64,000 bases of DNA from a virus (Duplodnaviria > Caudoviricetes), in the IMG/VR virus record IMGVR_UViG_3300014205_000185, positions 32,001 to 96,000 of that record; one strand, given 5' to 3'. The translations under genes were made by a program, and so were the position numbers. Of this stretch, positions 1 through 50,100 are shown one piece after another. Positions within the stretch are counted from its first letter, which is position 1. Each line of letters starts with the position of its first letter. The notes under the pieces are model-generated. The model had not been told where the DNA came from. It saw only the letters and a program-made list of their open reading frames with translations, and did no database searches.

Positions 1-157
1 ATGTGGACGCACTGATCGACCGAGCTACTCACATCTACTGGGAGCACCACGTCGCCGGCCACGACCTCGTCATCGTGGACGACCTCTCCCAGGTCTGGGC
101 CGTACTGGCGCGGCGCCCGGAGCCTGCTATGTCAACTACTGACGACGGAGACAGTCA

Positions 158-385
158 GTGAGCAAGCTCAACACCGAGGACATCATCGAGGTCTCCGTCA
201 AGACGAGTTCGATCGGACTGGTCTCATCGGCACTCTTCGTCGTCATCGTCGCGTGGCCGGTCATGCTCGGCCTCGGCGCCGCGCATGCTCAGTGGCCTGT
301 TGTGCCGGCATTCGGCTACTGGACGACGTACATCGTCACCCTGGCGATTCACCTCGTAGCCAGTCTGACTCGGCCACGGTCATGA
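158..385 (+). CDS. small membrane protein
   Basis: 75 aa with two hydrophobic segments; GGAG upstream of the GTG start; overlaps neighbours by 4 nt. Confidence 0.6.
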   Translation: MSKLNTEDIIEVSVKTSSIGLVSSALFVVIVAWPVMLGLGAAHAQWPVVPAFGYWTTYIVTLAIHLVASLTRPRS

Positions 386-657
386 CCTCCGCTCGCCTTC
401 TTTTGATCGGAGACGCCATAGACCGATTCATGGAGCTGTTGAGTCAGATCCAAGGACTCGTCGGCACGTCCCGGTTCGTGCCGGTCTCGACCGAAGAGGG
501 ATTGGCGACAGCTCAGAAGATCATGGCGTTCCCTCGACACATGGCTGCCGTCGATGTCCGTGAGGACGTGGCCAACCTGATCCTCACCCTGGTCGCGGAG
601 CGCGACGAGCTGAAGCGGCAAGCTGGAAGGCTGAGGGGCTCGCATGGGACGGCTTGA
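382..657 (+). CDS. hypothetical phage protein
   Basis: ATG at 382 coupled to the upstream stop (ATGA). Confidence 0.55.
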   Translation: MTSARLLLIGDAIDRFMELLSQIQGLVGTSRFVPVSTEEGLATAQKIMAFPRHMAAVDVREDVANLILTLVAERDELKRQAGRLRGSHGTA

Positions 658-877
658 GCCCGTCCGGCGAGCGGACGTTAGATAGATTCATGGCGAACGA
701 GTCGCAACCCCACATCTCTCATGACCCATACCGGCGTCAGGGTATGGTGAGCCAACTCACCTACTGTCGAGTGTGCTCTGCGGAGATCCAGGACGGCGAC
801 GGCCGGACGACCCCGGCCGGACAGTCCCCATGCACGGGACCCCGGGTTCGGCGTCCGAGATTCATAGGAGTTGGTCC

Positions 878-1087
878 ATGACGATCCACCCCAGCCATCA
901 CATGATCACTGGAAATGATGGAACGGTACTGGCTGGGCTCAAGTACTGCGCATCTTGCGGCTGGGTAGACGCCGCCGGCTACTCGTTGACGAAGAGCAAG
1001 CTCGCCGAGCCGTGTGCGTCGGCAGCTGCGCAGTCCCGACGTGGCCAGTCAGGCGAGGAGAACGAGGAGGAAATGCCCAGTGCCTAA
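878..1087 (+). CDS. small Cys/His-containing hypothetical protein
   Basis: AGGAG upstream, ATGA coupling, CxxC motif. Confidence 0.5.
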   Translation: MTIHPSHHMITGNDGTVLAGLKYCASCGWVDAAGYSLTKSKLAEPCASAAAQSRRGQSGEENEEEMPSA

Positions 1088-1718
1088 GCTGGACGACTAT
1101 GCCGATGAGCTGGCGGTAATGAACTCGATCCCGGTGATCAAGTACGTGCCGACTGAAGCTCCACCAGTTCTGGTGGAGACATCCCGAGACTACGTCCGGG
1201 AGATGAAGGCGATTCTCGACCAACATCTGACCAACGAGCAGTACAACGCTGCCGAGATAGCTCGGACGGTTGTCGCAGAGTTGCGCCGCGAGGACCCTGA
1301 CCTCCTCCTCGGTTGGCTATCGGTGCAGGCGGTTCGGCTTGTCCGGGAGACGATCCTCAAGCGTGACTCCACCTTCCGTGGCGAGAATCGGCAGCGAGCG
1401 GCCTACAGTACGTCCCGATCGGTATTCCGTGACGCCGCCGCGGAGTTCGAGCGCACGGGTGACGACAAGCCCTTGCGGTCTCGCTTCATGGCCGAGGTGT
1501 ACGTCATCCCTGACGGCTCACGAGTTCCATTGAGACTCATGACCGCCGACCAGTTGAACTTCGCTGCGGACGATTTCCAGCAGCGCGGCAGAGAGAGCCT
1601 CTTCCGGGAGGCATTCCTGCGCGCCGTGGCCACCCGCTGCGGCGATCGGACCGTGGAGGAGGTGTTTGACGAGGGGCAGCTCGCACGACTGTGGCTGTCG
1701 ATCGCTACTCCCAGATAG
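1080..1718 (+). CDS. alpha-helical hypothetical protein, candidate partner of the downstream RAMP
   Basis: GTG at 1080 downstream of GAGGAGG; about 212 aa; ends where the repeat tract begins. Confidence 0.7.
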   Translation: MPKLDDYADELAVMNSIPVIKYVPTEAPPVLVETSRDYVREMKAILDQHLTNEQYNAAEIARTVVAELRREDPDLLLGWLSVQAVRLVRETILKRDSTFRGENRQRAAYSTSRSVFRDAAAEFERTGDDKPLRSRFMAEVYVIPDGSRVPLRLMTADQLNFAADDFQQRGRESLFREAFLRAVATRCGDRTVEEVFDEGQLARLWLSIATPR

Positions 1719-1722
1719 CCAG

Positions 1723-1901
1723 CGACACGACTACTCCCCCCTGGCCGACCCACCTCTATTTCGACGAACCTCCCCCTGTCGCCGCCTCCCCGCCCAAGAC
1801 GACGCACCAGCGCGACCCACTTCATGTCAACCCAGTTGACTGCCCGACAAACCTGGTCTCACCCAGCCCCATTCACGCGCCGACTTTCCTTCGCGTGCAA
1901 C
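1723..1901. repeat. degenerate C-rich pentamer-periodic repeat tract (candidate guide-RNA array)
   Basis: CGAC at 1723, 1728, 1746, 1762, 1800, 1813, 1845 and 1881. Five of these continue NN-ACY. C occupies 16 of 18 positions spaced every 5 nt from 1783 to 1868. Confidence 0.6.
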
Positions 1902-1934
1902 AAAAAATCAACTATCCACAAAGGAGTAAGAACA

Positions 1935-2654
1935 GTGGCATCCGTATTCGCCAGCTACCAGGCCGAGAACTACCCGTACCGCTTCAGCGGCACTCTGCTC
2001 GTGGGCACCATCGCGGGCGGCATCCCCGCCGACCCGAAGGTCGCTGAGGGTTGGCTACGCACCAAGCTCGGCGTCGACAAGGAGGCTGAGATCCAGCGCC
2101 TGGTCGCAGAGACCATGGTCGAGCGGGGCGTGGACATGGCCGCCGCCACCGAGATCGTCAACGAGCAGAAGAACCTCAATGGGTTCAAGCGCGACGCGGA
2201 GAGGGGTCTCTACATCGAGGGACGTCAGCTCAAGGCCGCCCTCAAGGAGGCCACCTCGATTGCCGTCGCCGCCGGCAAGCTCTCCCAGCGTGGCTGGGGT
2301 ACTACGAACAAGGGCATCCTGAGCTTCCTCGCGGAGCACATGTTCGTGGTCGAGGACAAGCTGTTCCTGGGCGTCACTGAGCCCACGGGCGTAAACCAGC
2401 GCTTCGTGCACACGTTCCGCGGCACCGGCATCCAGTACGAGGAGTACGTGAACGAGGCGAAGGTCGACTTCACCGTCATCACGGACTTTGACTTCAGCGC
2501 CCGGGACTGGGCCGCTATCTGGTCGACCGGCGAACAGAACGGCATCGGTGCTTCCCGGTCGCAGGGCTACGGCCGCTACGAGGTCATCCGCTGGGACCGC
2601 GAGGTGCTCTCGACCCCGAGCAAGCCGCCGGCTCCGAAGAAGCCTGGCGCCTGA
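1935..2654 (+). CDS. stand-alone Cas7-group RAMP superfamily protein (Csm3/Cmr4/Csf2-like fold)
   Basis: AAGGAG RBS plus GTG. Motifs: N-terminal strand YRFSGTLLVGTIAGG, FKRD..GLYIEGRQLKAALKEA (cf. PYIPGSSLKGALR), and C-terminal G-rich loop GIGASRSQGYGRYEV. Confidence 0.85.
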   Translation: MASVFASYQAENYPYRFSGTLLVGTIAGGIPADPKVAEGWLRTKLGVDKEAEIQRLVAETMVERGVDMAAATEIVNEQKNLNGFKRDAERGLYIEGRQLKAALKEATSIAVAAGKLSQRGWGTTNKGILSFLAEHMFVVEDKLFLGVTEPTGVNQRFVHTFRGTGIQYEEYVNEAKVDFTVITDFDFSARDWAAIWSTGEQNGIGASRSQGYGRYEVIRWDREVLSTPSKPPAPKKPGA

Positions 2655-2727
2655 CCCTTCCTCCAGGGTGGTCCGTGGATTACTCTGCGAATCGCCGTCT
2701 TGGGTAAACCCCCACATGGAGGTAACG

Positions 2728-2865
2728 ATGCGTTTCGTCTGTGACAGCTGCACGAACGGGCAGCACGAGGAGTGCCGCGGGGGTACGTGGTGCGACTGTG
2801 GCCATCGGCCCACGCCAAAGATCTTTCAACTAGCTCGGGAGGCTAGGGATGCCCAACTTCGATGA
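2728..2865 (+). CDS. small Cys-rich (Zn-binding) protein
   Basis: GGAGG RBS; CxxC..H..C..CxC pattern. Confidence 0.55.
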   Translation: MRFVCDSCTNGQHEECRGGTWCDCGHRPTPKIFQLAREARDAQLR

Positions 2866-3247
2866 CGACGTGCCGATGCCGGTGGCTGTACCGCCACCGG
2901 CAAGCCGACCAAAGGCGTGGGTCCCGGCGCCCGAGCCGGCGAAGCCGGCGGCTCTGACACTCCGAGAGCAGATGGGTTGCGCCATCTGGGTTGGCAACGG
3001 CGTCCGCCGCAAGTCCCGTACCGAAGGACAGTGGCGGGCCATGTCGATGGAGCACTCGGGCAGCTTGCGTGATACCTACCTGGGCATCGTCGACCTGATG
3101 CGGCCGGTGATCAAGGAGCACTTCGAGGCCGCCCTGACGCAAATGGAAAGGTCGCGGACGGCCAGCGAGCTTGCCTCAAATTTCGAGGCAGCGCTGGTCT
3201 GGGAGCAGGCCACGGTCATTCTGCGTGCGGCCATCGATGATGTCTGA
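2849..3247 (+). CDS. hypothetical protein
   Basis: GGAGG RBS, 132 aa. Confidence 0.65.
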   Translation: MPNFDDDVPMPVAVPPPASRPKAWVPAPEPAKPAALTLREQMGCAIWVGNGVRRKSRTEGQWRAMSMEHSGSLRDTYLGIVDLMRPVIKEHFEAALTQMERSRTASELASNFEAALVWEQATVILRAAIDDV

Positions 3248-3419
3248 GGTCATTATCGCCGGCCTCTCGGCACTGGCGACCATGTTGCTATTCCTGATCG
3301 TCTTCACGCTTGGGGGCATCTTCCTCGCTGTCGGACATCTCCTCGTTCGACTGCGGAACTGGATCTATCGGCGACACCTTGAAGGGAGGGGGCCTACTGG
3401 CGGACCGCACAACCCATAA
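3240..3419 (+). CDS. small membrane protein
   Basis: long hydrophobic N-terminus, coupled to the upstream gene. Confidence 0.5.
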   Translation: MSEVIIAGLSALATMLLFLIVFTLGGIFLAVGHLLVRLRNWIYRRHLEGRGPTGGPHNP

Positions 3420-3468
3420 CTGTTGAGCGATCCAAAGATGGGTCGCGCCTGAAAGGATCTTTGTCCAC

Positions 3469-4278
3469 ATGAGACGCACTATCACTGCCCTGGTAGCGAT
3501 AGCTACGCTGCTCCTACTTCCACATCCGGCGCAGGCCGCCGCCCCTACGGCCGTCTCGCCCGTCACCGCTCCTATTCATGTGGAGCTGGGTGGCACATAC
3601 GTCACTCACGTCCTACCGGCCGACATCGCGACGAACGCGCAGTGGGGCGAGGGCGTCATCCGGATCACCACCCGCGTCTGTGGCAACGCTGACAACTGGG
3701 AGCAGGTTGCCGCGGCCAACGGCATCAGTCCTCCGGTGTACCTGGTCCTGCTCGACCAGCGGATCGTGGTCAGCTGCGCGGCCGGATCATCGCCCAAGAC
3801 TCCGGCATCAGCGCCAGCGGCGGCTCCTCCGGCGCCCGCGCCAGCCCCACAGGCGGCGTCGTCGGGCTGGGCTAACCCCGTCTGCGCTATGTCGATCGGT
3901 GACGGACTCGGCGCCGGACGCAATCACATGGGCGTGGATCTGATCGCCGACTATGGCACTCCAATCCGTGCCGCCGCGGCCGGTACCGTGTCGGTCGCTA
4001 CTCAGATCTACTACGACGAGCAAGGGCGCGTCAAGGGCGCTGGCAACTACACGACCATCAGTCATGGCAACAACGTCTGGACACAGTACTTCCATCAGTC
4101 CAAGTGGGCCGTGACGTCTGGTTGGGTTGCTACTGGCCAGATCATTGGGTACGTCGGCAGCACTGGCGACTCGTCGGGACCCCATCTGCACTTCGAGGTC
4201 CGAACCGGGAGCGCCTGGGGCTACGCCCAGGACCCGATCGCTTGGATGAACAACCACGGCGTCCGGCTCGGCTGCTAG
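3469..4278 (+). CDS. secreted M23-family peptidoglycan endopeptidase with LysM-like N-terminal region
   Basis: signal peptide ending AQA; WEQVAAANGI LysM-like segment; Pro/Ala linker; HMGVD (HxxxD) and GPHLHFE (HxH) zinc motifs. Confidence 0.9.
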   Translation: MRRTITALVAIATLLLLPHPAQAAAPTAVSPVTAPIHVELGGTYVTHVLPADIATNAQWGEGVIRITTRVCGNADNWEQVAAANGISPPVYLVLLDQRIVVSCAAGSSPKTPASAPAAAPPAPAPAPQAASSGWANPVCAMSIGDGLGAGRNHMGVDLIADYGTPIRAAAAGTVSVATQIYYDEQGRVKGAGNYTTISHGNNVWTQYFHQSKWAVTSGWVATGQIIGYVGSTGDSSGPHLHFEVRTGSAWGYAQDPIAWMNNHGVRLGC

Positions 4279-4310
4279 TAAGCAGATAGCCTCCTGGAGA
4301 AGAGGAATGT

Positions 4311-4364
4311 GTCGGCCCGATGGGATCAGATCCCAGGCAGATCTCGCGGTCCCATCGGGCTGAC
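4311..4364. other. long intergenic stem-loop
   Basis: GTCGGCCCGATGGGA pairs with TCCCATCGGGCTGAC (one G-U); inner AGATC/GATCT stem. Confidence 0.65.
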
Positions 4365-4399
4365 CATTTACATCGAAAGATGACCCAGGAGACAGAGTT

Positions 4400-4879
4400 A
4401 TGCAGACTCAGGCCGTGTTGCGTAGACCAGGAGACATCGTGCAGATCGCTCGTCGGCTATGTCAGGAGCTACACCAGATCCGGCTACAGCTCGGTCTGTC
4501 ACAGGCGGACGTGGCCAGGGCCATGGATATGCCGACCTCTCAGTCGAGCATCAGCGACTACGAGACTGGAGTGTCGTCACCAACGCTGCGCTCCTTGGTC
4601 CGATGGGCCGACGCGCTCGGCTGTACGTTGCGAATTGAGCCCGGCACCGAGCAGTGGGATGAGCGGGATCTACGAGGAGCTGACCTGCCGCACTTCACGT
4701 GGCGAGAGTGGGCAGTGGCCGGCGTCCCGGATCGAGTCTTCCATTCCGCCGAGCACGCCCAGAAGGTCGCCTCCTTCCAGGGATTTGGTGAACGCGAGAT
4801 CAAGGTCCGAGTGGTAAAAGAGTGGCTCGACGGAGAAGTTCTGCATGGCCCCTGGGAGAAAGTAGGCAACGATGAGTGA
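4400..4879 (+). CDS. XRE-family HTH protein with C-terminal extension
   Basis: LHQIRLQLGLSQADVARAM..SQSSISDYETG..SPTLRSLVRWADAL. Confidence 0.85.
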   Translation: MQTQAVLRRPGDIVQIARRLCQELHQIRLQLGLSQADVARAMDMPTSQSSISDYETGVSSPTLRSLVRWADALGCTLRIEPGTEQWDERDLRGADLPHFTWREWAVAGVPDRVFHSAEHAQKVASFQGFGEREIKVRVVKEWLDGEVLHGPWEKVGNDE

Positions 4880-5444
4880 GGTCTTTGTACCTAGTGCTCG
4901 CTTCGCGATATCACCCGACGGGCGCAAGGCTGCAATCCGTGCGTACGACGGAGATTCCTGGTTCTTGGCCTTGTTCGACTCGGTCAAGGGTACGCATGTT
5001 TCGAGCTTGCCTGGCGACTGGATCTACTTCGTGCCAGCGGTCGAGCGCGACCTGGCTGGCGAGGAGGTCAAACGGGCGGCTGATTCCTTGGAGGAATGCG
5101 CCTCGATGTTCGAGCACATCCGTCGACACATGCTGCCCGAGGTAAGTGAGCCTGGGCATGGCGAGCCTGGGGTAGAGCGGCTTGAGAATCGGATCCACCA
5201 GCTGGAGAACGGCCTGAGATGGATTCGATTTTGGGCGGGACTGCACTACCTGGGCGACGCCTTCGATCCTGAACACATGCGAGACATCGTCAACGTCGCC
5301 GCCGACGTTCTCGATGGGGCCCTCAAGGAAAAGCTCCCCGACTTCGATGAAGCCCTGGCCCGCGCCAAAGAGGCAGGTAAGCAGTGGGCGGACAGGGTCG
5401 GGCAGTGGGTGGAAGAAGACGAGGCCTCCCAATCGGAAAGGTAG
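4872..5444 (+). CDS. hypothetical protein
   Basis: 190-aa ORF coupled in the operon. Confidence 0.65.
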   Translation: MSEVFVPSARFAISPDGRKAAIRAYDGDSWFLALFDSVKGTHVSSLPGDWIYFVPAVERDLAGEEVKRAADSLEECASMFEHIRRHMLPEVSEPGHGEPGVERLENRIHQLENGLRWIRFWAGLHYLGDAFDPEHMRDIVNVAADVLDGALKEKLPDFDEALARAKEAGKQWADRVGQWVEEDEASQSER

Positions 5445-5449
5445 TGACC

Positions 5450-5626
5450 ATGGCTGAACTAGTGGGTACCCAGAAGGCGGCTGCCCTCCACGGCATAGCT
5501 CTTAATCAGGGCTACACGATCCTGGAGCAGCTCAGCGCAGCACGCGAGGCGCTGGACATCTACGAGCAGGAGTACGACCAACTCAAGGCCAAGTGCGACC
5601 AGCTAGAGCAGCAGCAGTCGACATGA
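5450..5626 (+). CDS. small coiled-coil protein
   Basis: GAAAGG upstream, heptad pattern. Confidence 0.55.
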   Translation: MAELVGTQKAAALHGIALNQGYTILEQLSAAREALDIYEQEYDQLKAKCDQLEQQQST

Positions 5627-5738
5627 CGTGGCTACTGGTCCTGATCGGACAGACGGTGCCAGGCTCCGAGGGAGTTCCTCTGCCGGCAGTCTTTGCCTAT
5701 GGGCGTCGGCCGTGGCACGCACGCAGGAGGAGGAGAGC

Positions 5739-6131
5739 ATGAGCGGTCGAGTCGGGATCTGTGGCGCCCAGTCGCCTTTCTATGGCGGAGCATCACCCTA
5801 CGTGTGCGATCTGGACGCCGGCCACCTCGGCTGGCACGGGGCTATGCCGCCGGGGTTCGAGATGCTCGGGATACGGACGAGCTGGGGGCGAGTAGATACA
5901 GACGTTGCCCGCGACCCGCGCTGGCCGGAGAGCGCTCGAATCTCAAACCTGGACGACCCGTTCGACCTGGCCGCAGCCACTGATGCCAGTGCGCGCTATG
6001 GCCGGCTAACGGACGTAGAAGTCGCCTTCGCCGCACACCGGGCAGCGCGTCATCTGCATGCGGCCCTGCGCGAGATCGAGCGCCTACGACGCAGCTCCGA
6101 AAATGCACTCGCCGTCGAGGACGAAGCATGA
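5739..6131 (+). CDS. hypothetical protein with C..C...H..H motif
   Basis: AGGAGGAG RBS. Confidence 0.6.
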   Translation: MSGRVGICGAQSPFYGGASPYVCDLDAGHLGWHGAMPPGFEMLGIRTSWGRVDTDVARDPRWPESARISNLDDPFDLAAATDASARYGRLTDVEVAFAAHRAARHLHAALREIERLRRSSENALAVEDEA

Positions 6132-6859
6132 CCAGCGATCGGGCCGTCTGGGTCATTGGCACCGCGGAGGATTGCGACTTTCAGATCGTCGACGAGTACG
6201 CCAGCGGTCATCACTGCCGGATTCTTAAGACAGACTCCGGCTATGTGGTCGAGGACCTGGGCTCGATGAACGGGACCTTCGTCCAGTCTCCGGGATTCTC
6301 GAACAAGGTTTACAAGTCCTACCTGCTGAAGGGTGGCCAGTCCCTGCGTGTCGGTCGCACCGACCTGGCCTGGACCGAGATCGTCCGCCGTTCTTCCCCG
6401 CGTCGAGCGCCGGCAATACCAACCATCGAGAGCTTGACCAGGGAGCTGGAGCTGGAGCTGGCCCGCGCCGAGCTAGCGGCGGCCAAGGATAGTGAGGAAT
6501 GGGACCCAGGCCCGATGTATATAGAGTACGACCGGGTCCGAACCGCGCTCCTTCGGGCCGAGGCGATCATCGCCCGGATTCGGGGACTTGACTCCGAGGA
6601 CGAGACCGTCAGGACACTGGTCGGGGACTACGGCACCTTCGCCGAGGACCACATCCAGGCCCTGGTCGACGAGCGCGACGCCCTGGAGCACTCGATCATC
6701 GACGGCCGAGCCCTAACCAACGACGCATTCCGTCAGCTCCGGGAGTTGATCCTCCCTGCGCTGAACCTGGAAGACGACGGCAAGACCTCGCTTCTGTCCT
6801 ATGTGGAACAGCTTGTGGTCGAGGTAGGACACACCCGCAAGGGGAGGGAAGAGCAGTGA
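6128..6859 (+). CDS. FHA-domain protein with C-terminal helical region
   Basis: WVIGTAEDCDFQIVDEYASGHHCRI..VEDLGSMNGTFV matches the FHA pattern (SxxH, DLGSxNGT). Confidence 0.85.
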   Translation: MTSDRAVWVIGTAEDCDFQIVDEYASGHHCRILKTDSGYVVEDLGSMNGTFVQSPGFSNKVYKSYLLKGGQSLRVGRTDLAWTEIVRRSSPRRAPAIPTIESLTRELELELARAELAAAKDSEEWDPGPMYIEYDRVRTALLRAEAIIARIRGLDSEDETVRTLVGDYGTFAEDHIQALVDERDALEHSIIDGRALTNDAFRQLRELILPALNLEDDGKTSLLSYVEQLVVEVGHTRKGREEQ

Positions 6860-7359
6860 CCGAGGACTGGACCCACGCTCCGGGCGCGACGGAACCACGC
6901 ATGGAGATGGCCGCGATTGGCGGTGTGGTACTGCTCCGCTCATCGTCGGCCCCGGAGAAGGTGATCTCCCTGACCGAGGCTGAGTGGCTCGCATTCATGA
7001 CTGGCTTGCTGCCGAGGACCGACCCGCGCGAGATCCCGGGCTCTATGGCCGGACCCGGCGGCCCCCACGACCCGCACGGGGTCGTGCTCGACGCCCGCAA
7101 CGCCGTCCTACTCGAAACCATCGATGTGTCGACCGTCGACCCTGAGCGTGGCGGTCGGGGCAGGTCGGCGCTCGCCCTCGTGCTCGGGGGGCGCATCAAC
7201 CAAACCCAGGATCGTGCCAGTGTGCTGTTTATCTTCGGCACTGACGGAGCGGCCGGCATCATCACCGAGCTGATCGGCGTTATGGACAGGGCGTCTGGCT
7301 CCGAGTTCGTCGCCGGATTCATGGCCGATCTCTCCGAACGCCTGCGCGGTGCCGAGTGA
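6856..7359 (+). CDS. DUF397-like N-terminal domain fused to an unknown domain
   Basis: MEMAAIGGVVLLRSSSAPEKVISLTEAEWLAFMTG resembles DUF397 (VEVA..V.VRDSK.P..L.FT..EW.AF..G). Confidence 0.65.
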   Translation: MTEDWTHAPGATEPRMEMAAIGGVVLLRSSSAPEKVISLTEAEWLAFMTGLLPRTDPREIPGSMAGPGGPHDPHGVVLDARNAVLLETIDVSTVDPERGGRGRSALALVLGGRINQTQDRASVLFIFGTDGAAGIITELIGVMDRASGSEFVAGFMADLSERLRGAE

Positions 7360-7823
7360 CCAAAGTGCGGCTCATCGCAATCCAGATCACCGATGACGTG
7401 GTCTATGGCGCTGTTATGCCCTCCGTGGGTTACTTTCCGGAGGCGGACGTCGGCCCGTGGGGCATCAACGCGGCACCTCGGGCCTGGGAGCTACTGAAGC
7501 AGTTGACGGCAGAAGACGCCGACGTCGAGGATCTCAAAAGGCGCTACGGCAAAGAGCTGGCCGATGCCGAGGAAGAGTTGGCCCTGGCGTTGGACATGGA
7601 GTACGGCGAGTACGGCTATCCGACTGGAGACAATACCGTGGTCAGTCTGGCCATGGAGGTTCGCCGAGAGCTGGAGAAGGCCCGCGGTGAGCGTGACCTA
7701 CTGAGGATGCAGCTTGCTAGGGTTCGGCAAGCGAGTCGTCGTACGATCGATCATCTGGTCCGGCAGCTTGAGGCCGTTGGCCAGTCACCCACGATCGCCA
7801 GCCCCCTCGAAGGGACTCAATGA
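7356..7823 (+). CDS. hypothetical coiled-coil protein
   Basis: GTGA-coupled ORF. Confidence 0.6.
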   Translation: MTKVRLIAIQITDDVVYGAVMPSVGYFPEADVGPWGINAAPRAWELLKQLTAEDADVEDLKRRYGKELADAEEELALALDMEYGEYGYPTGDNTVVSLAMEVRRELEKARGERDLLRMQLARVRQASRRTIDHLVRQLEAVGQSPTIASPLEGTQ

Positions 7824-8224
7824 GCGACAAGCTTGAGGCCGTTACCCAGGCGGTGAACCAGCACCACGTGGACACTGTCCGGATCTGGGGAAACTGGACC
7901 TGGATCTGTAGCTGTATGCCCGGTCTGGCGGAAGAGACCTTCACCGAGTACGAACAGGCCCAGGTCGCTGGCTCGCGCCATCAGGCCGTTGCGGTGGTTG
8001 ACGCCCTCGGGCTCCTGCTTCTGCCGCCGGGAGGATCGACCCGGACCTGGTACGGCTACACGGACATGAACGGGACCGCCGTCCATCGCTGCCTGGACCC
8101 GGACTACTGCGATATCCCGGCCAATCTGCACGTGGTGTCGCAGACGGTAACCATGTGGGATAACCGATCCAGCTACACCAGGGCCTGGGAGCCGTACGTA
8201 CATCGAGGGAGAGTCAGTGGCTGA
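7820..8224 (+). CDS. hypothetical protein
   Basis: ATGA-coupled ORF. Confidence 0.6.
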   Translation: MSDKLEAVTQAVNQHHVDTVRIWGNWTWICSCMPGLAEETFTEYEQAQVAGSRHQAVAVVDALGLLLLPPGGSTRTWYGYTDMNGTAVHRCLDPDYCDIPANLHVVSQTVTMWDNRSSYTRAWEPYVHRGRVSG

Positions 8225-43999: not shown

Positions 44000-44179
44000 A
44001 TGGCCAAGGAATCAGAAACGATCATCATGAACGATGCCGACGGGAACCCGGTCAAGGACCCGAAGAAGGCAGCCACGGCCGAGATCACTCGGGTTGACGC
44101 CAACGGCAAGGTCCGGCGCACGCTCATGCTGGGACCAGATGCCGAGCGGCAGCAGCCGTCAAGCCCTGGCGGCTGGTAG
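44000..44179 (+). CDS. 59-aa antisense protein (not in the ORF track)
   Basis: GGGAG RBS; MAKESETIIMNDADGNPVKDPKKAATAEITRVDANGKVRRTLML...; high GC3. Confidence 0.6.
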   Translation: MAKESETIIMNDADGNPVKDPKKAATAEITRVDANGKVRRTLMLGPDAERQQPSSPGGW

Positions 44180-47100
44180 GCCGTAGCCGGGCGATCTCCG
44201 CCAGCTGGGCGGCAGCTGACTGCGGGAAGATCTGGTCGAGAACAGCCGCCCGCTCCGGGAACAAATCCCGGAACCAGATCGGCACCCATGCGTCCTCGCC
44301 TTCGGCGTCACGGAAGATGCCTTCGCCTACTTGGCCCGTGAAGTAGAGCGAAATGGCCTCGGCAAAGTCCTCATGGATGTCAGAGGTGCCATAGTTCGTG
44401 ACTCCGCGAGGAACCGGACGCGACGCATCCGGCGTTCCCCGGATGTCGGCGCTTGGTCCCTCTCCGTTCGGAACGAACCGGCGCAGCTGAGCACCGGGCC
44501 GGTCACTCCGCGCCGCCTGCTGCCACGCGGGCGAAGTCGAGCGCAGCCGTGGGGGGACGCCTTCCTCGATGTTGTGGCCTAGCTCGTGGTCCAGGTATCG
44601 CTTGAGTCGGTCACGATCGGCTGACAGCAAGCGGTCGGTCTGCCAGATGGCAACCTCACCGTCGCCGGCCGAGGCGGCTGACCAGAAGTCGGTCAGGCCA
44701 TACTTCTCCGCCATCTCAGCGTCGTTGGGGTTCGCGCCCACCATGGCGTAGTAGGCCTTCTGGTAGCCCCGGGCATCCGGCGCCAGCGAGTCCTGGTACG
44801 CGATGAGGCGATCCCGCATGAGACGCGCGCTGGCCCGTCCTTCAGGAGTGTCCGGGTGCTCGACGGTGTAGTCGACGCCGTCGCGCTTCCAGTTCGTCGC
44901 GTTCTCGATCGTGTACCCGTCTACGACCTTGCCCTGGACCTTGGTTCCCATGCTCATTCGCCGCGGAGCCGGAGAGCCCTGTCTTGACGGTACCGATCGG
45001 GCCTGGGCTCGGGCTGTTGGCGTAGCCCGAGGAACACTCGCCTGTCCGACTGCTCCAGTGGCTGGGCGCATTGTCGAGCCGCCCGGCGTCCGGGCCAGGA
45101 TGGCATCAGCCCGACCGAGAGCCGCGTCGTACCAGTCCTCATGTCCGGCAGCGACAAACTCCGGCTTCATCTCAACGAGCTTCGTCCTGGCGTCCAGAAC
45201 CTCCTCGCGAGTGAAAGGCATCTTGTCGGCCCACCGGGTGGTTCCGTTCGGAGCCTCTACGGTGGTGCCATAGTGCTGAGCAAACGGGTCAAAGGAGTTT
45301 GGCGTCTGAGGCATCTGCTCACCACGGTAGGAGACTGGCGCCCCCATGAAGCTAGCCGCGTGGTCGATGCCGTGCGCGTTGCCGTCCGCGTCAATGATGA
45401 TGTTGTCGTCGTGGCGGTCGACGTTGCCAGTGATGAGATCGAGCAGGTGCAGTCGGCGACCTCTGTCGCTAGCCACCGCCTTATCGAGTCGCTCCTGATC
45501 GGACCCGCCGGCTTGCCCTGGCACCAGGTCCATGAACACGGTGTCGTCGCTGGAGCGGTAGGTGGACGGGACGTCGGCACCCATGCTTCGTCCGTACTTT
45601 GAGGACAGATCCTCAGACAGAGCCTGGTCATTGGCCGAGTAGTCCCAACCAGGGCCGTCGTCGCGACCTGTCTTCTTGCGGATCATGGGTCGCCCGTCGG
45701 CCCCGGTTACTCGATGAACGGTTGAGTAACTGCGGTCGCTAAGCCTTCGGCCCACCCTCGGCTTCCCGCTCTCTACGCTGGCCTGGAGGTCGGCCGGCGT
45801 GGCGCTTCCCTCCTTCTTCGAGGGGGTCCGGAGGGTTGCCTTCTTGGCTGCCGGTGCGCCGACCAGCTTCTCAGCGAGGGCCCGACGCAGGGCTGGCTTC
45901 GGCTGGATCGGGTCCACGCCGACGGAATCCGCCACCTCGCGCATGATGTCGAGGCCGACGTTCTTGTCCTCCATCCACGCCTCTGCCTCGTCAGGGCTAT
46001 TGAACCCCCGAATCCGCTCGGCCATTCCGTCCGGGGTGTCGGGCACACCCTCGCGTGTGATGCGAGGCTTCGACGGAGCAGCTGCCGGCGACGGAACTGA
46101 AGGAGCAGCCTCGGGAGCGTTGCCAGCCCGCAGACCCTTGATCCATTCGCGCATCTGAAGGTGGACGTCGTCGCCGTGCTTGCCACCGGTCGTAACCCGA
46201 TCGGCAAGACCCCACATCCGGTAGGCGCCGTCCACGCTCTCGTGATAGGTACGCAGCGGCTTTGTGATGCTGTCTTCGGCGTTACCGAGGCTGATCTCGC
46301 CCTTCTTTTCGTCGATCTCGCGAATCGCTCGGACGACTCGATCCAGGGCGGAATCTTCTTCGGTGGTGATCCCGTATAGATGATGTCCACGAGGAGCCCT
46401 AGCGACAGGGATCTTGTGCAGATTCTCGACTAGAGCGCGCAGTGCTGGTGGAGTTCCGTCCGGCAGATCCGGTAGGTCGCCCTTGGGGATGTCCAACTCC
46501 CTGATGGCCTGGTCGAGCTTCTTCTGGAGAGCGGGGTCAGTCTCGACCGACCGCAGTCTCTTCAGTTCCTCGACCATCCGCTGTGGACCGTCGAAGTCGT
46601 TAGCGTCGTCGCCACGGTTGGTGCTGATGGAGCGACGAAGCTCCATGATCTCGTTGGCAGTGCCGTTACGACCCTTCGCGGCGTAGGCCTGAGCTAGAGT
46701 CATGCTTCTGGAGTCGCCGTGCATGAGCGAGTTATCGCCCTCGGGATCCGTGACCAGCGGGACATCTTCCTTGATGGCCGAGGTGGCGGGAGCCGCCTTC
46801 GTCGGTGCGGCTTTACGCGGCGCCTTGCTCACGGTGACGTCGAGCTGCCGGATGCCGTCAACAGTCCGGTCACGGGTCACTGTCATCTGGAGCCCGCGCT
46901 CTAGCAGGATCTCCTTGTTCTGGTCGTCCTCCTCGCCGTATCCACCAAAGCGGATCGCCTTAATGCCCTTGGGCACGTCGAGGCGAAGCATGATGCCAGG
47001 CTTCTTCGGGTCCATGCCACTGTCGGCATAGGTCCGGGAAATATCCCGATCCACCGAGGTGGACATGAAGCCGGGGTCATCGAAGACGCGGCCGACCAGT

Positions 47101-50100
47101 GATCCCTCTCCCTCAGGGAGGTCCTTGAACTGGTCGATACTGTGTGGACGGGCGATGCCACGCCACGTGCGGACAGAGACCGGCAGCGGTGACTCGTCCA
47201 TTACCTCGTCGATGAGCTTGGTGGCCTCTGTATCTCCAGCCTCACGAACCTTCCAGGGGGACGTGTCGCCGTCTTCGATGTTGTAGCCGTGCAACGCCTT
47301 CTCGGCCTTGGCGAGCTTCTCTGTCGACCATCCCTTTGGCGGAGCCTCGAACTCGGTGGTCATCTCCATGTCCCAGATGGAGTCGGTCGGGCCTCTCTTG
47401 TCGCGGGTAATAGTCCGGACAGTTGGCACTGCCAATGCGTCGTCACCCTCGACGAATCCGGTTGAGGTCGCGGCAGGCGTGACCTTCCTCAGCTCGGCTG
47501 TGGCCGTAGCGTTCTCCACATTGGACTTCGCTACGCCTGCCTCAACGACCTCTGGAGTGACCTCTTCTGTCGGCTTCTTGCTGCCATTGAGTTCGTCGGC
47601 GATGTCACGCAGGCGCTTGGCGTCGGACCTGCCCATGGCCTGGCGCATGCTGCCCCTGGTCGTGGCGTGCGTGTCGAGGACGTCTCGGTTGATGACGTCC
47701 CGCCTCTCCAGCGTGTCGGCCTGGGAGCGTAGGTCCCGAGCCACAACGGCCGGGTCTTCGCCGTTGGTGATTCGACGCATGGCCTCGTCACTGGAGCCCA
47801 GGCCCTGGACCGTCTGGATCTTGCCGTCGCGGGCCTCCAGGCGGTCCAGCATCTCGGTGTAGTTGTTGCGCCGCTCCACGCCAGCCCTATCAGGACGCGG
47901 GATAGCCGTCTTCTTGGGTGCGATCTTTCTGGCTGGCGCCGCCTTGGTTACGCGCGTGGGGCTCGGGGTCGCCTGCACGGTCGGTGGTTCACGCAGCGAA
48001 GCACCTGGGTTCGGGCGTGGCACCGGAGCAGTACGGGCGCCCTCGGGTACCTCGGAGACAATGGCTCCTCGGTTGAGGATCACGTACTGTTCGTTGGCCC
48101 CATTCACCGGATCGGTGCCGAAACCCTGAGTGCCCTGCGGGACGAAGATCGCGTCATAGCCGCGAGCCATGGCGTACCGGCCCGGGTCAGCGAAGGCGAC
48201 CTTCTCCGGACTGTCGTCTTCCAGCGAGAACAGGTATCGGTTGTGCTCGCGGACCAGGTCATCCCATTCGATGATCTTCGCGTCCCTGCGCATGCCGAAT
48301 CGACCCAGCGAGCCCGGGGTCTTGTCGGCATAGCCGTTGGCATGACCAAACCGGCGGGTCATATAGGTGCCGTTGCCGAAGATGCCTTCGCCCATCCGGT
48401 ACGGGCCATCCCGGAACTCTTCGTGCACCTCTGCGGCCGGCTTGCCGTATTCGCCACCCTTGGCACCACGGAACAGTCGGAAGTCGACCTCCTTGGTGCG
48501 CAGCATCCGAGTGAACTCCTCCGGTGTGACCAAAGTGGTCGGCCGGTCGAAGCCCTGCTCGGCGGCGAGAGCCTCGCCGATCGCATCGCCGCCCGTCAGC
48601 GGCCCTTCAAGCTCACCGCTATCGCTACCCCAGCCGCGTGGCGGCTTGGCGCCTGAAGCCTTGGCTCGCTCGATCGCCCTGGCAGCCACGCCTGGCTCGG
48701 CGATCAGGTCGCGGGCAACTGTTGGCCTGGTCTCCAGCTCCGCTCGACGAGCCACGTCGATGTCCTCGAAGTGAGCGACGATGGCCCTCTTGATATCCGG
48801 CGTCTTGGCATTGCTCTGGCCGTCGACTCCAAGGTCCTTGGCCAAGGTGCGCCACGTAGCGACCGGAATCGGTTGTCCATAACGCTCTCGCCCGCGGTAC
48901 GGAGTCAGGCGCCGCATCTGCGCGTCGTACACCTCCAGCATGCGGGCCCTGGCGGCAGGACTTGGGGCCTGACTCAGGTCCCGAGTAATGCCCTCAGGGT
49001 TAGGCGTCCCATCCTGCCTGATCGGCCGACTCGCCAGCTCGGCCTCTTTTTCCGCCTTACGTGCCGCCTTCCGCGCGGCGATGCGCTCATCGAGCGCCTT
49101 CCGGTCGGCTTCGATCTGCTCAGGAGTTCGGGTGTCAGGCGCCGCCTTTGGTGGCTTCTTCGGCACAGTGGGCAGACCCGTATCAGCTAGTCGCTGGGCC
49201 CGCAGATCTGCCGTCTCGTTGTAGTCATCCAGGATCGCGGTCCGGACGTCTTCAGGGCTGGACCGGTCTAGACGGTGCCCGCCAAGGAGGCCGCGAGCCA
49301 AGGTGCGCCACTGGTTGTTGTTCAGCTCGCCCAGGTCGTCGAGGACTGCGGCGCGCTCTTCCGGCGTCTTTGCTTCGATCAGCTGCTGACGAACCTTGAC
49401 AGCGTTGACCGGACCACGGAGGGCTGGCTTCTTGACCGCGGCCGGCACTGCCTTGGCGAGTTCAGCAGTGGCCTGGTCAGTCTCCAAATTGGACTTGGCG
49501 ACGCCAGCCTTGGCGACCCTCGGAGTGACCTTTGCGACCGGCTTGCTTTCCGGCGCTCCCGATCCAAATATCTCAAGGCTGTGGACGATTTCGTCGCGGG
49601 TCCGCTCTCTATCTCCCCGCAGGCCAACCGGCAGCTTGATACCGGCTGCACGGGCAACAGCCCGTAGGTCGGCCTCGTTCAGATCCTTGAGAACTTCCGC
49701 CTTGGCGGCACGGCCATCGGCCACAGACGCGGCGTCTGCGATCTCTGTGATGCGAGCCCGACGAACCTCGGGTCCCTGCCGCTTCGGTGCCGGCATGGGT
49801 CCAGAGGAGCCGCGCCGTGGGCCCTTCGCTCCATGGCGCTTCGCGATGGTCGCGATGAGCGCGTTCTTGTTGCTGGGAACGTCGGACACGTCGACATCAA
49901 GCTCAGCGGCGACCTTCCTCAGCTCAGCGGAGGTGAGGTTCTGTCGGTCGAGTTCGCGAACGAGATAGGCCTCGTCGCTGCGGTAGCGCAGCGCGTCGGC
50001 AACCTGCGTCTCGTGATCCGCGGCCTTGGGCGCCGCCTTCTTGACGGCGATCTTCTTAGTAGGGGCCGACGCTCTGCCGCCGCGCGGTCGCAACTGCACC

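What the first reader, a model, noticed from the sequence alone, without database searches (positions are those of the whole stretch)
1080..2654. Phage-encoded solo Cas7-like RAMP beside a non-CRISPR repeat tract: candidate RNA-guided system
Seen: 1935-2654 has the Cas7-group RAMP hallmarks (N-terminal strand ending GG, YIxGxxLKxALK helix, terminal GxGxxRSxGYGR loop). No cas1/2/3/5/6/10 gene and no repeat-spacer CRISPR array is recognisable in the 64 kb. The gene is instead preceded by a ~190-nt periodic non-coding tract. Known: Cas7-group RAMPs polymerise along a guide RNA with a fixed nucleotide step. Inference: the protein coats RNA from the tract to form a minimal nuclease-free guided complex, for example to silence competing phages or host genes, or to act as a CRISPR decoy. 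From memory, and unverified here, this resembles recently reported viral RAMP plus GGY/NN pentamer-RNA (VIPR-type) loci, but the repeat here is more degenerate and may be a distinct variant.
Basis: partly seen in the sequence, partly recalled or inferred. Interest (0 to 1): 0.95.

Follow-up and report, generated by a model that had tools for sequence, protein, structure and literature searches.

The report
Actinophage VIPR-type RNA-guided silencing locus
A phage of actinomycete bacteria carries a lone CRISPR-like RNA-binding protein beside a 5-base-periodic guide tract that matches the conserved core of rival phages' RecT recombinase genes, so this is a member of the VIPR systems first described in 2026, with its own array layout.

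Summary

- **Protein.** Gene 1935-2654 encodes a confidently modelled Cas7/Csm3-like RAMP. Its family profile aligns with the SUSP1 Vipr family (hhalign 91%, E 1e-6).
- **Genome context.** The 118-kb phage genome has no Cas1, no Pfam RAMP match and no CRISPR array.
- **Tract.** Tract 1719-1934 shows no periodicity by TRF or Fourier analysis. It is nevertheless a short, degenerate member of an array class that abuts this gene in about 50 of 57 viral loci and 14 actinomycete genome loci.
- **Array grammar.** On the G-rich strand the units are pentamers G(93%) G(66%) g(50%) N N, separated by a 3-nt GTC.
- **Code.** The published rule (NN pairs, one base skipped) holds in three cases, each with the skipped base at the codon wobble position:
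  - one array unit matches Vipr genes of rival phages 16/16;
  - another matches the terminase Walker A codons 18/18;
  - the window's own clean unit (1763-1803) matches codons ESLALRK of RecT genes in about 25 divergent lineages, against 1 to 6 lineages for three control patterns.
- **Other parts.** A helical ORF (1080-1718) is conserved upstream, and a 1.7-kb array lies at the genome's left end.
- **Open points.** I could not settle which strand is the guide RNA, because the G-rich motif lies antisense to vipr. I also could not settle which published VIPR type this is.

The scan had already noted the 5-nt code on this window.

The parts
1080..1718 (+). Conserved upstream accessory ORF (candidate vap-like partner). 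The true start is uncertain; the conserved core begins near the RDY motif at about nt 1182.
   Evidence: tblastn finds homologs in 38 of 59 loci, always in the order ORF - array - RAMP on one strand. The alignment is A4. The AF2 model (pLDDT 84.5) is all alpha-helical, with no PDB fold match and no Pfam or PHROG family. It shows no similarity to SUSP1 vap1.
1719..1900 (.). Short, degenerate pentamer array. It is C-rich on the + strand and carries the G-G-n-N-N / GTC motif on the - strand. It starts directly at the stop codon of the upstream ORF.
   Evidence: It is one of three extreme GC-skew tracts in the 118-kb genome, with 8 CGAC. The same array class abuts the gene in related loci.
1763..1803 (.). 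The one clean guide unit: GAC (1763-1765), seven pentamers (1766-1800), GAC (1801-1803). The NN dinucleotides read on the + strand are GA TC CT GC CT CG AA.
   Evidence: Under the 1-nt skip rule this equals codons E-S-L-A-L-R-K of the RecT signature block. 27 of 119 listed IMG/VR matches are RecT genes from 25 lineages, against 1 to 6 lineages for three control patterns. The phage's own genome lacks RecT.
1901..1934 (+). A-rich spacer with the Shine-Dalgarno AAAGGAG (1920-1926) ahead of the GTG start.
   Evidence: Read from the sequence. In related loci the last CGAC lies a median of 29 nt from the start codon.
1935..2654 (+). Vipr-like minimal RAMP (239 aa): RRM core, inserted helical bundle (about residues 34-77), long beta-hairpin (152-183, probable thumb), and a low-complexity C-terminal tail.
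   Evidence: AF2 pLDDT 92.9. Foldseek against the PDB gives type VII Cas7 and Csm3; against BFVD it gives viral RAMP-like proteins. hhalign to the SUSP1 Vipr family gives 91%. More than 1,700 homologs were found, all unannotated.
2205..2252 (+). Helix-1 of the RRM (LYIEGRQLKAALKEAT, residues 91-106), the main RNA-binding helix in RAMPs.
   Evidence: It aligns with SUSP1 Vipr helix-1 (GFVMNGEMIEACIK). G96, K100, K104 and E105 are invariant in alignment A2; K100 and E105 are near-invariant in the wider A1.
2541..2576 (+). Glycine-rich loop GIGASRSQGYGR (residues 203-214).
   Evidence: It aligns with the SUSP1 G-loop GVGDWRPRFGR. R208 is invariant and corresponds to SUSP1 R179. The guanine-contacting D177 and W178 of SUSP1 are A206 and S207 here.

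Best explanation
This is a VIPR-type (Viral Interference Programmable Repeat) system of an actinophage.

Proposed mechanism. The RAMP protein (1935-2654) polymerises, one protomer per 5-nt repeat, along RNA made from the adjacent array. It holds the three conserved positions of each pentamer and exposes the two variable ones. These NN pairs read double-stranded DNA with one target base skipped per pair, so each unit of 5 to 9 pentamers recognises 5 to 9 consecutive codons whatever their wobble bases. Binding silences genes of competing phages.

This locus. The unit in this window is aimed at the conserved ESLALRK block of RecT recombinases, a gene this phage lacks. Most of this phage's units sit in a 1.7-kb array at the genome's left end.

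Shown here: the fold, the remote homology, the conserved gene-array linkage, the pentamer grammar, and the codon-phased target matches.

Inferred: RNA binding, filament formation, DNA binding and silencing, all by analogy with SUSP1 VIPR. Also inferred is which strand is the RNA. I lean about 60:40 to the C-rich sense strand, co-transcribed as the vipr 5' leader, over the G-rich antisense strand.
For: - **Fold.** AF2 pLDDT 92.9. The top 40 PDB matches are all Cas7/Csm3/Cmr4 backbones (E 1e-8 to 1e-5).
- **Homology.** Family profile A1 against SUSP1-type Vipr profile A3 gives Prob 91%, E 1.1e-6, over 129 columns including helix-1 and the G-loop.
- **No cas context.**
- **Linkage.** Arrays of 200-2650 nt abut the gene in about 50 of 57 IMG/VR loci and 14 actinomycete genome loci.
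- **Grammar.** GTCG spacings peak at 5n+3 (33 and 38 nt). Pentamer positions are G 93%, G 66%, G 50%, then two positions near 25% for each base.
- **Code, specificity.** Only the 1-nt skip gives excess matches.
- **Code, first case.** The L014 unit matches KVAEGWLK codons of Vipr genes in 10 loci 16/16, and its own copy 14/16.
- **Code, second case.** The L016 unit matches the terminase Walker A codons VRGPHGLGK 18/18 in two phages that differ at 7 of 9 wobble bases. Its best self match is 14/18.
- **Code, class test.** With those two units removed, matches on the coding-sense strand with the skipped base at the wobble position number 96 against 69.3 +/- 8.9 in shuffled-guide controls (z 3.0, 0 of 20 controls reach it).
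- **Code, window unit.** It matches RecT in 25 lineages, against 1 to 6 lineages for the controls.
- **Both target strands occur** (versus 117), as reported for VIPR DNA targeting.
Against: - No RNA, RNP or binding data exist for this family.
- The tract in the window is short and mostly out of phase.
- No convincing target was found for most units of this phage's terminal array. One unit's UvsX match is at control level and lies in low-GC phages.
- The guanine-contacting residues of SUSP1 Vipr (D177, W178, R138) are A, S and E here.
- No structured 3' tail was seen.
- The G-rich motif is antisense to vipr and its neighbours, unlike SUSP1, where vrRNAs share the gene strand.
- No consensus promoter was found for either strand.
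- The target evidence rests on three strong cases plus one z = 3 statistic.
Confidence: 0.85

Rival explanations
1. Same VIPR system, but the guide is the G-rich strand (5'-G G n N N-3', GTC-punctuated). It would be transcribed antisense to vipr from its own promoter, exactly as in canonical vrRNAs. The C-rich sense copy would then be only the vipr leader.
For: - All published vrRNA consensus motifs are G-based, and small-RNA sequencing confirmed RNAs for three types.
- On the G strand the layout matches the canonical one: three conserved positions followed by NN, with the near-invariant G directly 3' of the NN.
- C is rare on that strand outside GTC. From my own knowledge, that would give a C-preferring actinobacterial RNase E a unique cut site.
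Against: - The C-rich strand is the coding strand of the flanking genes in 111 of 116 flank calls.
- The array usually ends a median of 29 nt from the vipr start, right at the SD, which leaves no room for an outward promoter.
- It begins at the stop codon of the upstream ORF with no terminator.
- The SUSP1 residues that read the guanines are not conserved.
Confidence: 0.35
2. The complex targets mRNA rather than DNA: an antisense RNA guide on a Cas7-like backbone, as in type III and type VII CRISPR effectors.
For: - The closest solved structures are RNA-targeting backbones.
- Two of the three strong matches, and the z = 3 class, put the C-rich strand antisense to the target mRNA.
Against: - The window unit matches RecT in the opposite orientation. 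Whichever strand is the guide, at least one strong target cannot be reached by pairing with mRNA.
- Published VIPR binds dsDNA.
Confidence: 0.05
3. There is no guide function. The tract is just a C-rich leader or Rho-loading site, or a DNA-level repeat such as a protein-binding iteron or end structure. The RAMP-like protein does something unrelated, for example acting as a CRISPR decoy.
For: - The tract alone is not significantly periodic.
- A larger array sits at a genome end next to a 123-nt inverted terminal repeat.
- C-rich, G-poor RNA is a classic Rho substrate (my own knowledge).
Against: This does not explain the two free positions per pentamer, the skip-1 and wobble-phased exact matches to conserved genes of other phages, or the homology to Vipr.
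Confidence: 0.04

Closest known systems
VIPR type II of Escherichia phage SUSP1 (Vipr ALH47069.1 + vap1 + vrRNAs; bioRxiv 10.64898/2026.04.26.720920 and 10.64898/2026.04.26.720927)
   Same: - A lone minimal RAMP with G-loop, thumb and helical bundle.
- No cas genes and no CRISPR array.
- Phage-encoded, with a two-gene locus.
- A pentamer RNA code of three conserved plus two free positions.
- Targets read with one base skipped, aligned to codon wobble positions.
- Targets are genes of competing phages, including other Vipr genes.
- Both DNA strands are targeted.
   Different: - The relationship is detectable only by profile comparison (91%, about 16% identity).
- The guanine-contact residues D177, W178 and R138 are replaced.
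- The motif is G-G-n, not GGY.
- Units are 5-9 pentamers rather than 9-16.
- Units are separated only by GTC, with no structured 3' tail seen.
- Arrays hold up to about 70 units (2.6 kb).
- The G-rich motif is antisense to vipr, whereas SUSP1 vrRNAs lie on the gene strand.
- The accessory ORF is unrelated to vap1.
Other VIPR types I and III-VII, with 'staggered' tail-less arrays and NNNGG / YNNNG / NNNNG repeats (same preprint, figs S17-S18)
   Same: - Contiguous arrays in which one vrRNA ends where the next begins.
- Relaxed pentamer consensus.
- Type-specific accessory genes predicted to bind DNA.
   Different: I could not compare directly. The figures and supplementary tables are not held, and the text names no actinomycete examples. 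Whether this family is one of the seven types is therefore unknown. GTC punctuation and antisense placement are not mentioned in the text I could read.
Cas7-family backbone subunits (Csm3 of type III-A, Cas7 of type VII; e.g. PDB 9j9e, 8z4j, 6ifl)
   Same: RRM/RAMP fold, helix-1, G-rich loop and thumb hairpin (Foldseek E 1e-8, TM 0.5-0.6). These subunits polymerise on a guide with a fixed nucleotide step.
   Different: No sequence-level match to Pfam RAMPs. No partner cas genes and no repeat-spacer array. The step is 5 nt with 2 read positions, rather than 6 nt with 5 read positions.

Membership tests
VIPR (Vipr + vrRNA) | The protein is a minimal RAMP: one RRM core, glycine-rich loop and thumb, with no second RRM. 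| tested here: met
   The AF2 model (pLDDT 92.9) has a beta-alpha-beta core, a G-loop at 203-214 and a long hairpin at 152-183. The Foldseek top hits are Cas7/Csm3.
VIPR (Vipr + vrRNA) | Homology to the Vipr protein family. The preprint defined membership by PSI-BLAST from X1U2U4. | tested here: met
   hhalign of A1 against a 35-sequence SUSP1-type Vipr alignment gives Prob 91%, E 1.1e-6, 129 columns. This is remote: there was no phmmer-level hit. PSI-BLAST itself could not be run.
VIPR (Vipr + vrRNA) | A non-CRISPR context: no cas operon and no repeat-spacer array. | tested here: met
   No Cas1, no Pfam RAMPs match and no CRISPR-like repeats in the 118-kb genome or window. Other cas families were not searched individually.
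VIPR (Vipr + vrRNA) | Flanking tandem pentamer repeats, GGY/NN or a related consensus, with at least 4 units. | tested here: met
   Family-wide pentamers are G93 G66 g50 N N. The window tract has one run of 7. Strict GGY/NN is absent.
VIPR (Vipr + vrRNA) | An invariant structured 3' tail capping each vrRNA (type II). | tested here: not met
   Units are separated only by GTC, preceded by a W-A bias. No Rfam or hammerhead match was found. The preprint says other types have tail-less staggered arrays, so this excludes type II rather than VIPR as a whole.
VIPR (Vipr + vrRNA) | Targets follow the 1-nt skip rule, with the skip at the codon wobble position, in competing mobile elements. | tested here: met
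   Matches of 16/16, 18/18 and 14/14 across 25 lineages, all in frame. Skips of 0, 2 and 3 show no excess.
VIPR (Vipr + vrRNA) | An accessory vap gene in the locus. | tested here: inconclusive
   A conserved helical ORF lies upstream in 38 of 59 loci. It has no similarity to SUSP1 vap1 and no recognisable DNA-binding fold.
VIPR (Vipr + vrRNA) | vrRNA is expressed, co-purifies with Vipr, and the RNP binds and silences dsDNA. | not testable with these tools
   No transcriptome or biochemistry is available. The strand of the RNA is unresolved.
CRISPR-Cas class 1 (type III / VII) Cas7 | Encoded in a cas operon with a CRISPR array, and matching the curated RAMP or Cas7 sequence families. | tested here: not met
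   Only a fold-level resemblance exists.

The most novel reading that the evidence does not exclude
In this large actinophage branch the guide is the C-rich sense strand (5'-NN y C C-3' pentamers with GAC punctuation), made as the untranslated leader of the vipr mRNA itself. The G-reading residues of Vipr would have been replaced to read the complementary motif. This would be a 'mirror-coded' VIPR with dozens of mini-guides per array. Coating of the C-rich leader might also control vipr expression, for example by blocking Rho.
Probability: 0.4. Interest if true: 0.8.

Novelty: new member of a known kind. Interest (0 to 1): 0.6.

Why it matters
VIPR was described only in 2026, and its experiments cover Proteobacteria-type systems.

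This locus shows that the same gapped, wobble-skipping code operates in a very large branch found in phages and prophages of Streptomyces, Nocardiopsis and related actinomycetes. That branch has more than 1,700 protein clusters, none of them annotated.

The analysis gives concrete natural targets: the RecT signature block, the terminase Walker A motif, and rival Vipr genes. It also defines a compact array grammar, 5-9 pentamers per guide with GTC separators, that could be reprogrammed.

It raises a testable question about which strand is the guide. That question bears on how Vipr proteins read their repeats and on how such arrays are expressed.

Tried and rejected
- **Family and structure searches by sequence.** Pfam, PHROGs and PDB sequence searches of the RAMP and its neighbours found nothing.
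- **Periodicity in the tract alone.** TRF and Fourier analysis of the tract found nothing. A genome-wide GGY/NN scan found nothing.
- **Similarity to cultured phages.** blastn of the region against cultured phages found nothing. By protein, only Microcystis phage Mae-JY09 matched.
- **Locus retrieval.** The search for related loci failed with the wide alignment and with the single protein. It worked with the closer alignment A2.
- **Other scans.** Rfam on both arrays gave nothing meaningful. Consensus promoter and terminator scans gave nothing.
- **Upstream ORF.** A fold search gave no match.
- **Larger database.** Enlarging the target database to 2.8 Mb of related phage genomes added little. 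Exact 16-nt hits other than the two real ones were out of frame, so I rejected them as chance.
- **Terminal-array units.** No convincing target appeared in that database. The UvsX match is at control level.
- **mRNA targeting.** I considered this and rejected it because strong matches occur in both orientations.
- **VIPR type.** I could not assign a published type because the supplement is not held.
Full report
**Context.** The window is bases 32001-96000 of a 117,993-bp IMG/VR virus record, which has a short inverted terminal repeat and a CheckV completeness of 100%. It is a tailed phage. It encodes a portal, a 4309-aa ORF and a glycosylation island. Region 1-8000 encodes small early-type genes on the + strand, including an M23 peptidase, an HTH protein and an FHA protein. 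Homologs of the gene of interest occur in prophage regions of Streptomyces, Nocardiopsis, Streptosporangium, Actinomadura and Streptacidiphilus, so the host is an actinomycete.

**The protein.**
- Pfam, PHROGs and PDB sequence searches give nothing.
- The family is very large. More than 1,735 clusters at 90% identity match it, and 567 representatives at 50% identity. All are 'hypothetical'. Only one cultured phage carries a copy, Microcystis phage Mae-JY09.
- An AlphaFold model built from 60 homologs is confident (pLDDT 92.9, pTM 0.87).
- Foldseek against the PDB returns only CRISPR backbone RAMPs at the top: type VII Cas7, then Csm3, Cmr4 and Cas7-11 (E 1e-8 to 1e-5, TM 0.5-0.6). Against viral models it finds other phage and archaeal-virus RAMP-like proteins.

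**Is VIPR real, and is this a Vipr?** The recalled system exists in two 2026 preprints. They describe a lone RAMP (Vipr) and vrRNAs made of 9-16 YNNGG repeats plus a 3' tail. Each NN pairs with dsDNA while one target base is skipped. Seven types are defined, some with NNNGG, YNNNG or NNNNG repeats and 'staggered' tail-less arrays.

I located the SUSP1 locus in KT454805.2 by its GGYNN runs. Vipr is ALH47069.1, and the vrRNAs lie on the same strand as the genes. I built a 35-sequence alignment of its family. Profile-profile comparison with the window's family gives Prob 91%, E 1.1e-6 over 129 columns, covering helix-1, the thumb region and the G-loop. The window's family is therefore a remote relative of Vipr.

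The SUSP1 residues that read the two guanines (D177, W178, R138) align with A206, S207 and E169/170. R179 aligns with the invariant R208.

**The tract.** Taken alone, 1719-1934 is not periodic and there is no GGY/NN run anywhere in the genome. It is, however, one of only three extreme GC-skew stretches in the genome. The other two are a 1.7-kb G-rich non-coding block at the left end and the right terminal repeat.

In related loci (2 by identity look-up, 57 from IMG/VR, 16 from genomes) the same kind of sequence abuts the RAMP gene. It runs 200-2650 nt, is C-rich on the gene strand and is punctuated by CGAC. It usually lies 5' of the gene and sometimes 3'. This holds in about 50 of 57 non-duplicate viral loci and 14 genome loci, down to 24% protein identity.

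Pooling about 1,300 units gave the following picture:
- On the G-rich strand, GTCG spacings peak at 5n+3 (33 and 38 nt most often).
- G recurs every 5 nt, in phase with GTC.
- In clean units the pentamer positions are G 93%, G 66%, G 50%, then two positions with all four bases near 25%.
- GTC acts as a 3-nt separator between units of 5-9 pentamers.

This is the VIPR layout of three held positions and two free ones, with a relaxed motif and no visible tail.

In the window, the parse gives one clean unit plus short or out-of-phase units. The clean unit is GAC 1763-1765, seven pentamers at 1766-1800, and GAC 1801-1803.

**A conserved partner gene.** ORF 1080-1718 has homologs in 38 of 59 loci, always in the order ORF - array - RAMP on one strand. 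It is all-helical (pLDDT 84.5), with no fold, Pfam or PHROG match, and it is unrelated to SUSP1 vap1.

**Does the code work here?** I took the NN of consecutive pentamers and searched related phage DNA with 0-3 skipped bases. Only skip 1 gave an excess. Most of that excess came from single units, so I examined them as separate events.

1. **A unit of the L014 array.** Its eight pentamers read AA GT GC GA GG TG CT AA. This matches codons K-V-A-E-G-W-L-K of the Vipr genes of 10 other loci 16/16, in frame and with the skipped base at the wobble position. It matches its own phage's copy only 14/16.
2. **A unit of the L016 array.** Its nine pentamers match codons V-R-G-P-H-G-L-G-K, the Walker A motif of a 491-aa terminase-like ORF, 18/18 in two phages that differ from each other at 7 of 9 wobble bases, and 17/18 in a third. 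The best match in its own genome is 14/18.
3. **A class test with both units removed, in a 2.8-Mb database of 43 whole related contigs.** Matches where the G-strand sense equals the coding sense and the skipped base is the wobble position number 96, against 69.3 +/- 8.9 for shuffled guides (z 3.0, 0 of 20 controls). No other class is enriched. Other exact 16-nt hits were out of frame and are taken as chance.
4. **The window's own clean unit, searched in IMG/VR.**
   - It falls in RecT-family genes (PF03837) in 27 of 119 listed stretches.
   - It lies on codons E-S-L-A-L-R-K of the block KCAESLALRKAFP.
   - The hits come from 25 lineages below 85% nucleotide identity, in contigs of GC 0.35-0.74.
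   - All four bases occur at most of the skipped positions.
   - A second protein family with DSLALRKF adds about 20 more hits.
   - Three control patterns (one reversed, two shuffled) gave largest clusters of 2, 6 and 1 lineages.
   - This phage has no RecT gene.

For the terminal array the evidence is weaker.
- Unit 1298 gives 104 hits in all, against 58 for its shuffle. Its clusters are 9 lineages (an unknown family) and 4 lineages (tail sheath).
- Unit 595 matches UvsX-like genes of low-GC phages at control level.

**Which strand is the RNA?** This is unresolved.
- **For the G-rich strand.** Every published consensus is G-based, and the order 'conserved triplet then NN', with the near-invariant G just 3' of the NN, is the canonical one.
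- **For the C-rich strand.** It is the coding strand of the flanking genes in 111 of 116 flank calls. The array starts at the stop codon of the upstream ORF and ends a median of 29 nt from the vipr start, often directly at the SD. The vipr mRNA must therefore carry the C-rich copy, and there is no room for an outward promoter. The G-reading residues are also replaced.
- **Neutral evidence.** No consensus promoter or terminator helps.

I put the odds at about 60:40 for the C-rich sense strand. Because strong targets occur in both orientations (events 1 and 2 against event 4), pairing with mRNA cannot explain all of them on either assumption. This fits dsDNA targeting.

**Verdict.** The locus is a VIPR-type system: a Vipr-like RAMP, a conserved accessory ORF, a short array beside the gene and a large array at the genome end. 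Its guides are coded against conserved genes of competing phages. It is a new member of a kind described in 2026. Whether its GTC-punctuated arrays, antisense to the gene, equal one of the seven published types could not be checked, because the supplement is not held.

Noticed in passing
own genome bases 60-1752 (outside the window; locus L088:60-1752): A 1.7-kb non-coding array of about 50 GTC-punctuated G-G-n-N-N units sits at the left genome end. It is G-rich on the + strand, the opposite orientation to the tract beside the RAMP gene 32 kb away. It partly overlaps the 123-nt inverted terminal repeat.
   Followed up: partly
L007, L018, L026, L039, L053, L072, L075, L081 (contig starts): Many metagenomic contigs end inside the array just upstream of the RAMP gene. 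Either the arrays break assemblies (population hypervariability) or they lie at physical genome ends in several phages.
   Followed up: no
window 2729-2833 (+): A 34-aa Cys/His-rich ORF (CDSC...C...CDCGH, zinc-ribbon-like) lies directly after the RAMP gene. No homolog was found at this position in the 59 related loci.
   Followed up: partly
window 44124-57053 (-): A single 4309-aa ORF with strong AT skew lies between the portal/head genes and the tail region. An earlier first-reader note calls it a polyvalent protein with ART and Nudix domains. I did not examine it.
   Followed up: no
window 3469-4278, 4400-4879, 6128-6859 (+): An M23 peptidase with a signal-like N-terminus, an HTH_3 regulator and an FHA-domain protein follow the locus. 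The M23 and FHA genes are syntenic with L003 and L005.
   Followed up: partly
L088:1793-1810 (own genome): A perfect hairpin, GACCCC-GATGTG-GGGGTC, lies between the terminal array and the first gene (ATG 1828). It is flanked by TTGACC ... TACGGT, which looks like a promoter for a leaderless mRNA. On the other strand a TGATATGGT extended -10-like site points into the array.
   Followed up: no
L004:3932-4678 (Microcystis phage Mae-JY09, PP395641.1 37713-38459): This is the only cultured phage with a homolog (35.7% identity). The gene lies 517 nt from the record end. I did not check whether an array follows it.
   Followed up: no
IMG/VR hits L295, L332, L340, L250 and others: A second protein family, about 280-310 aa from low-GC phages, carries DSLALRKF at the same codons as the RecT block and is also matched by the window's guide unit. 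Its identity was not determined.
   Followed up: no
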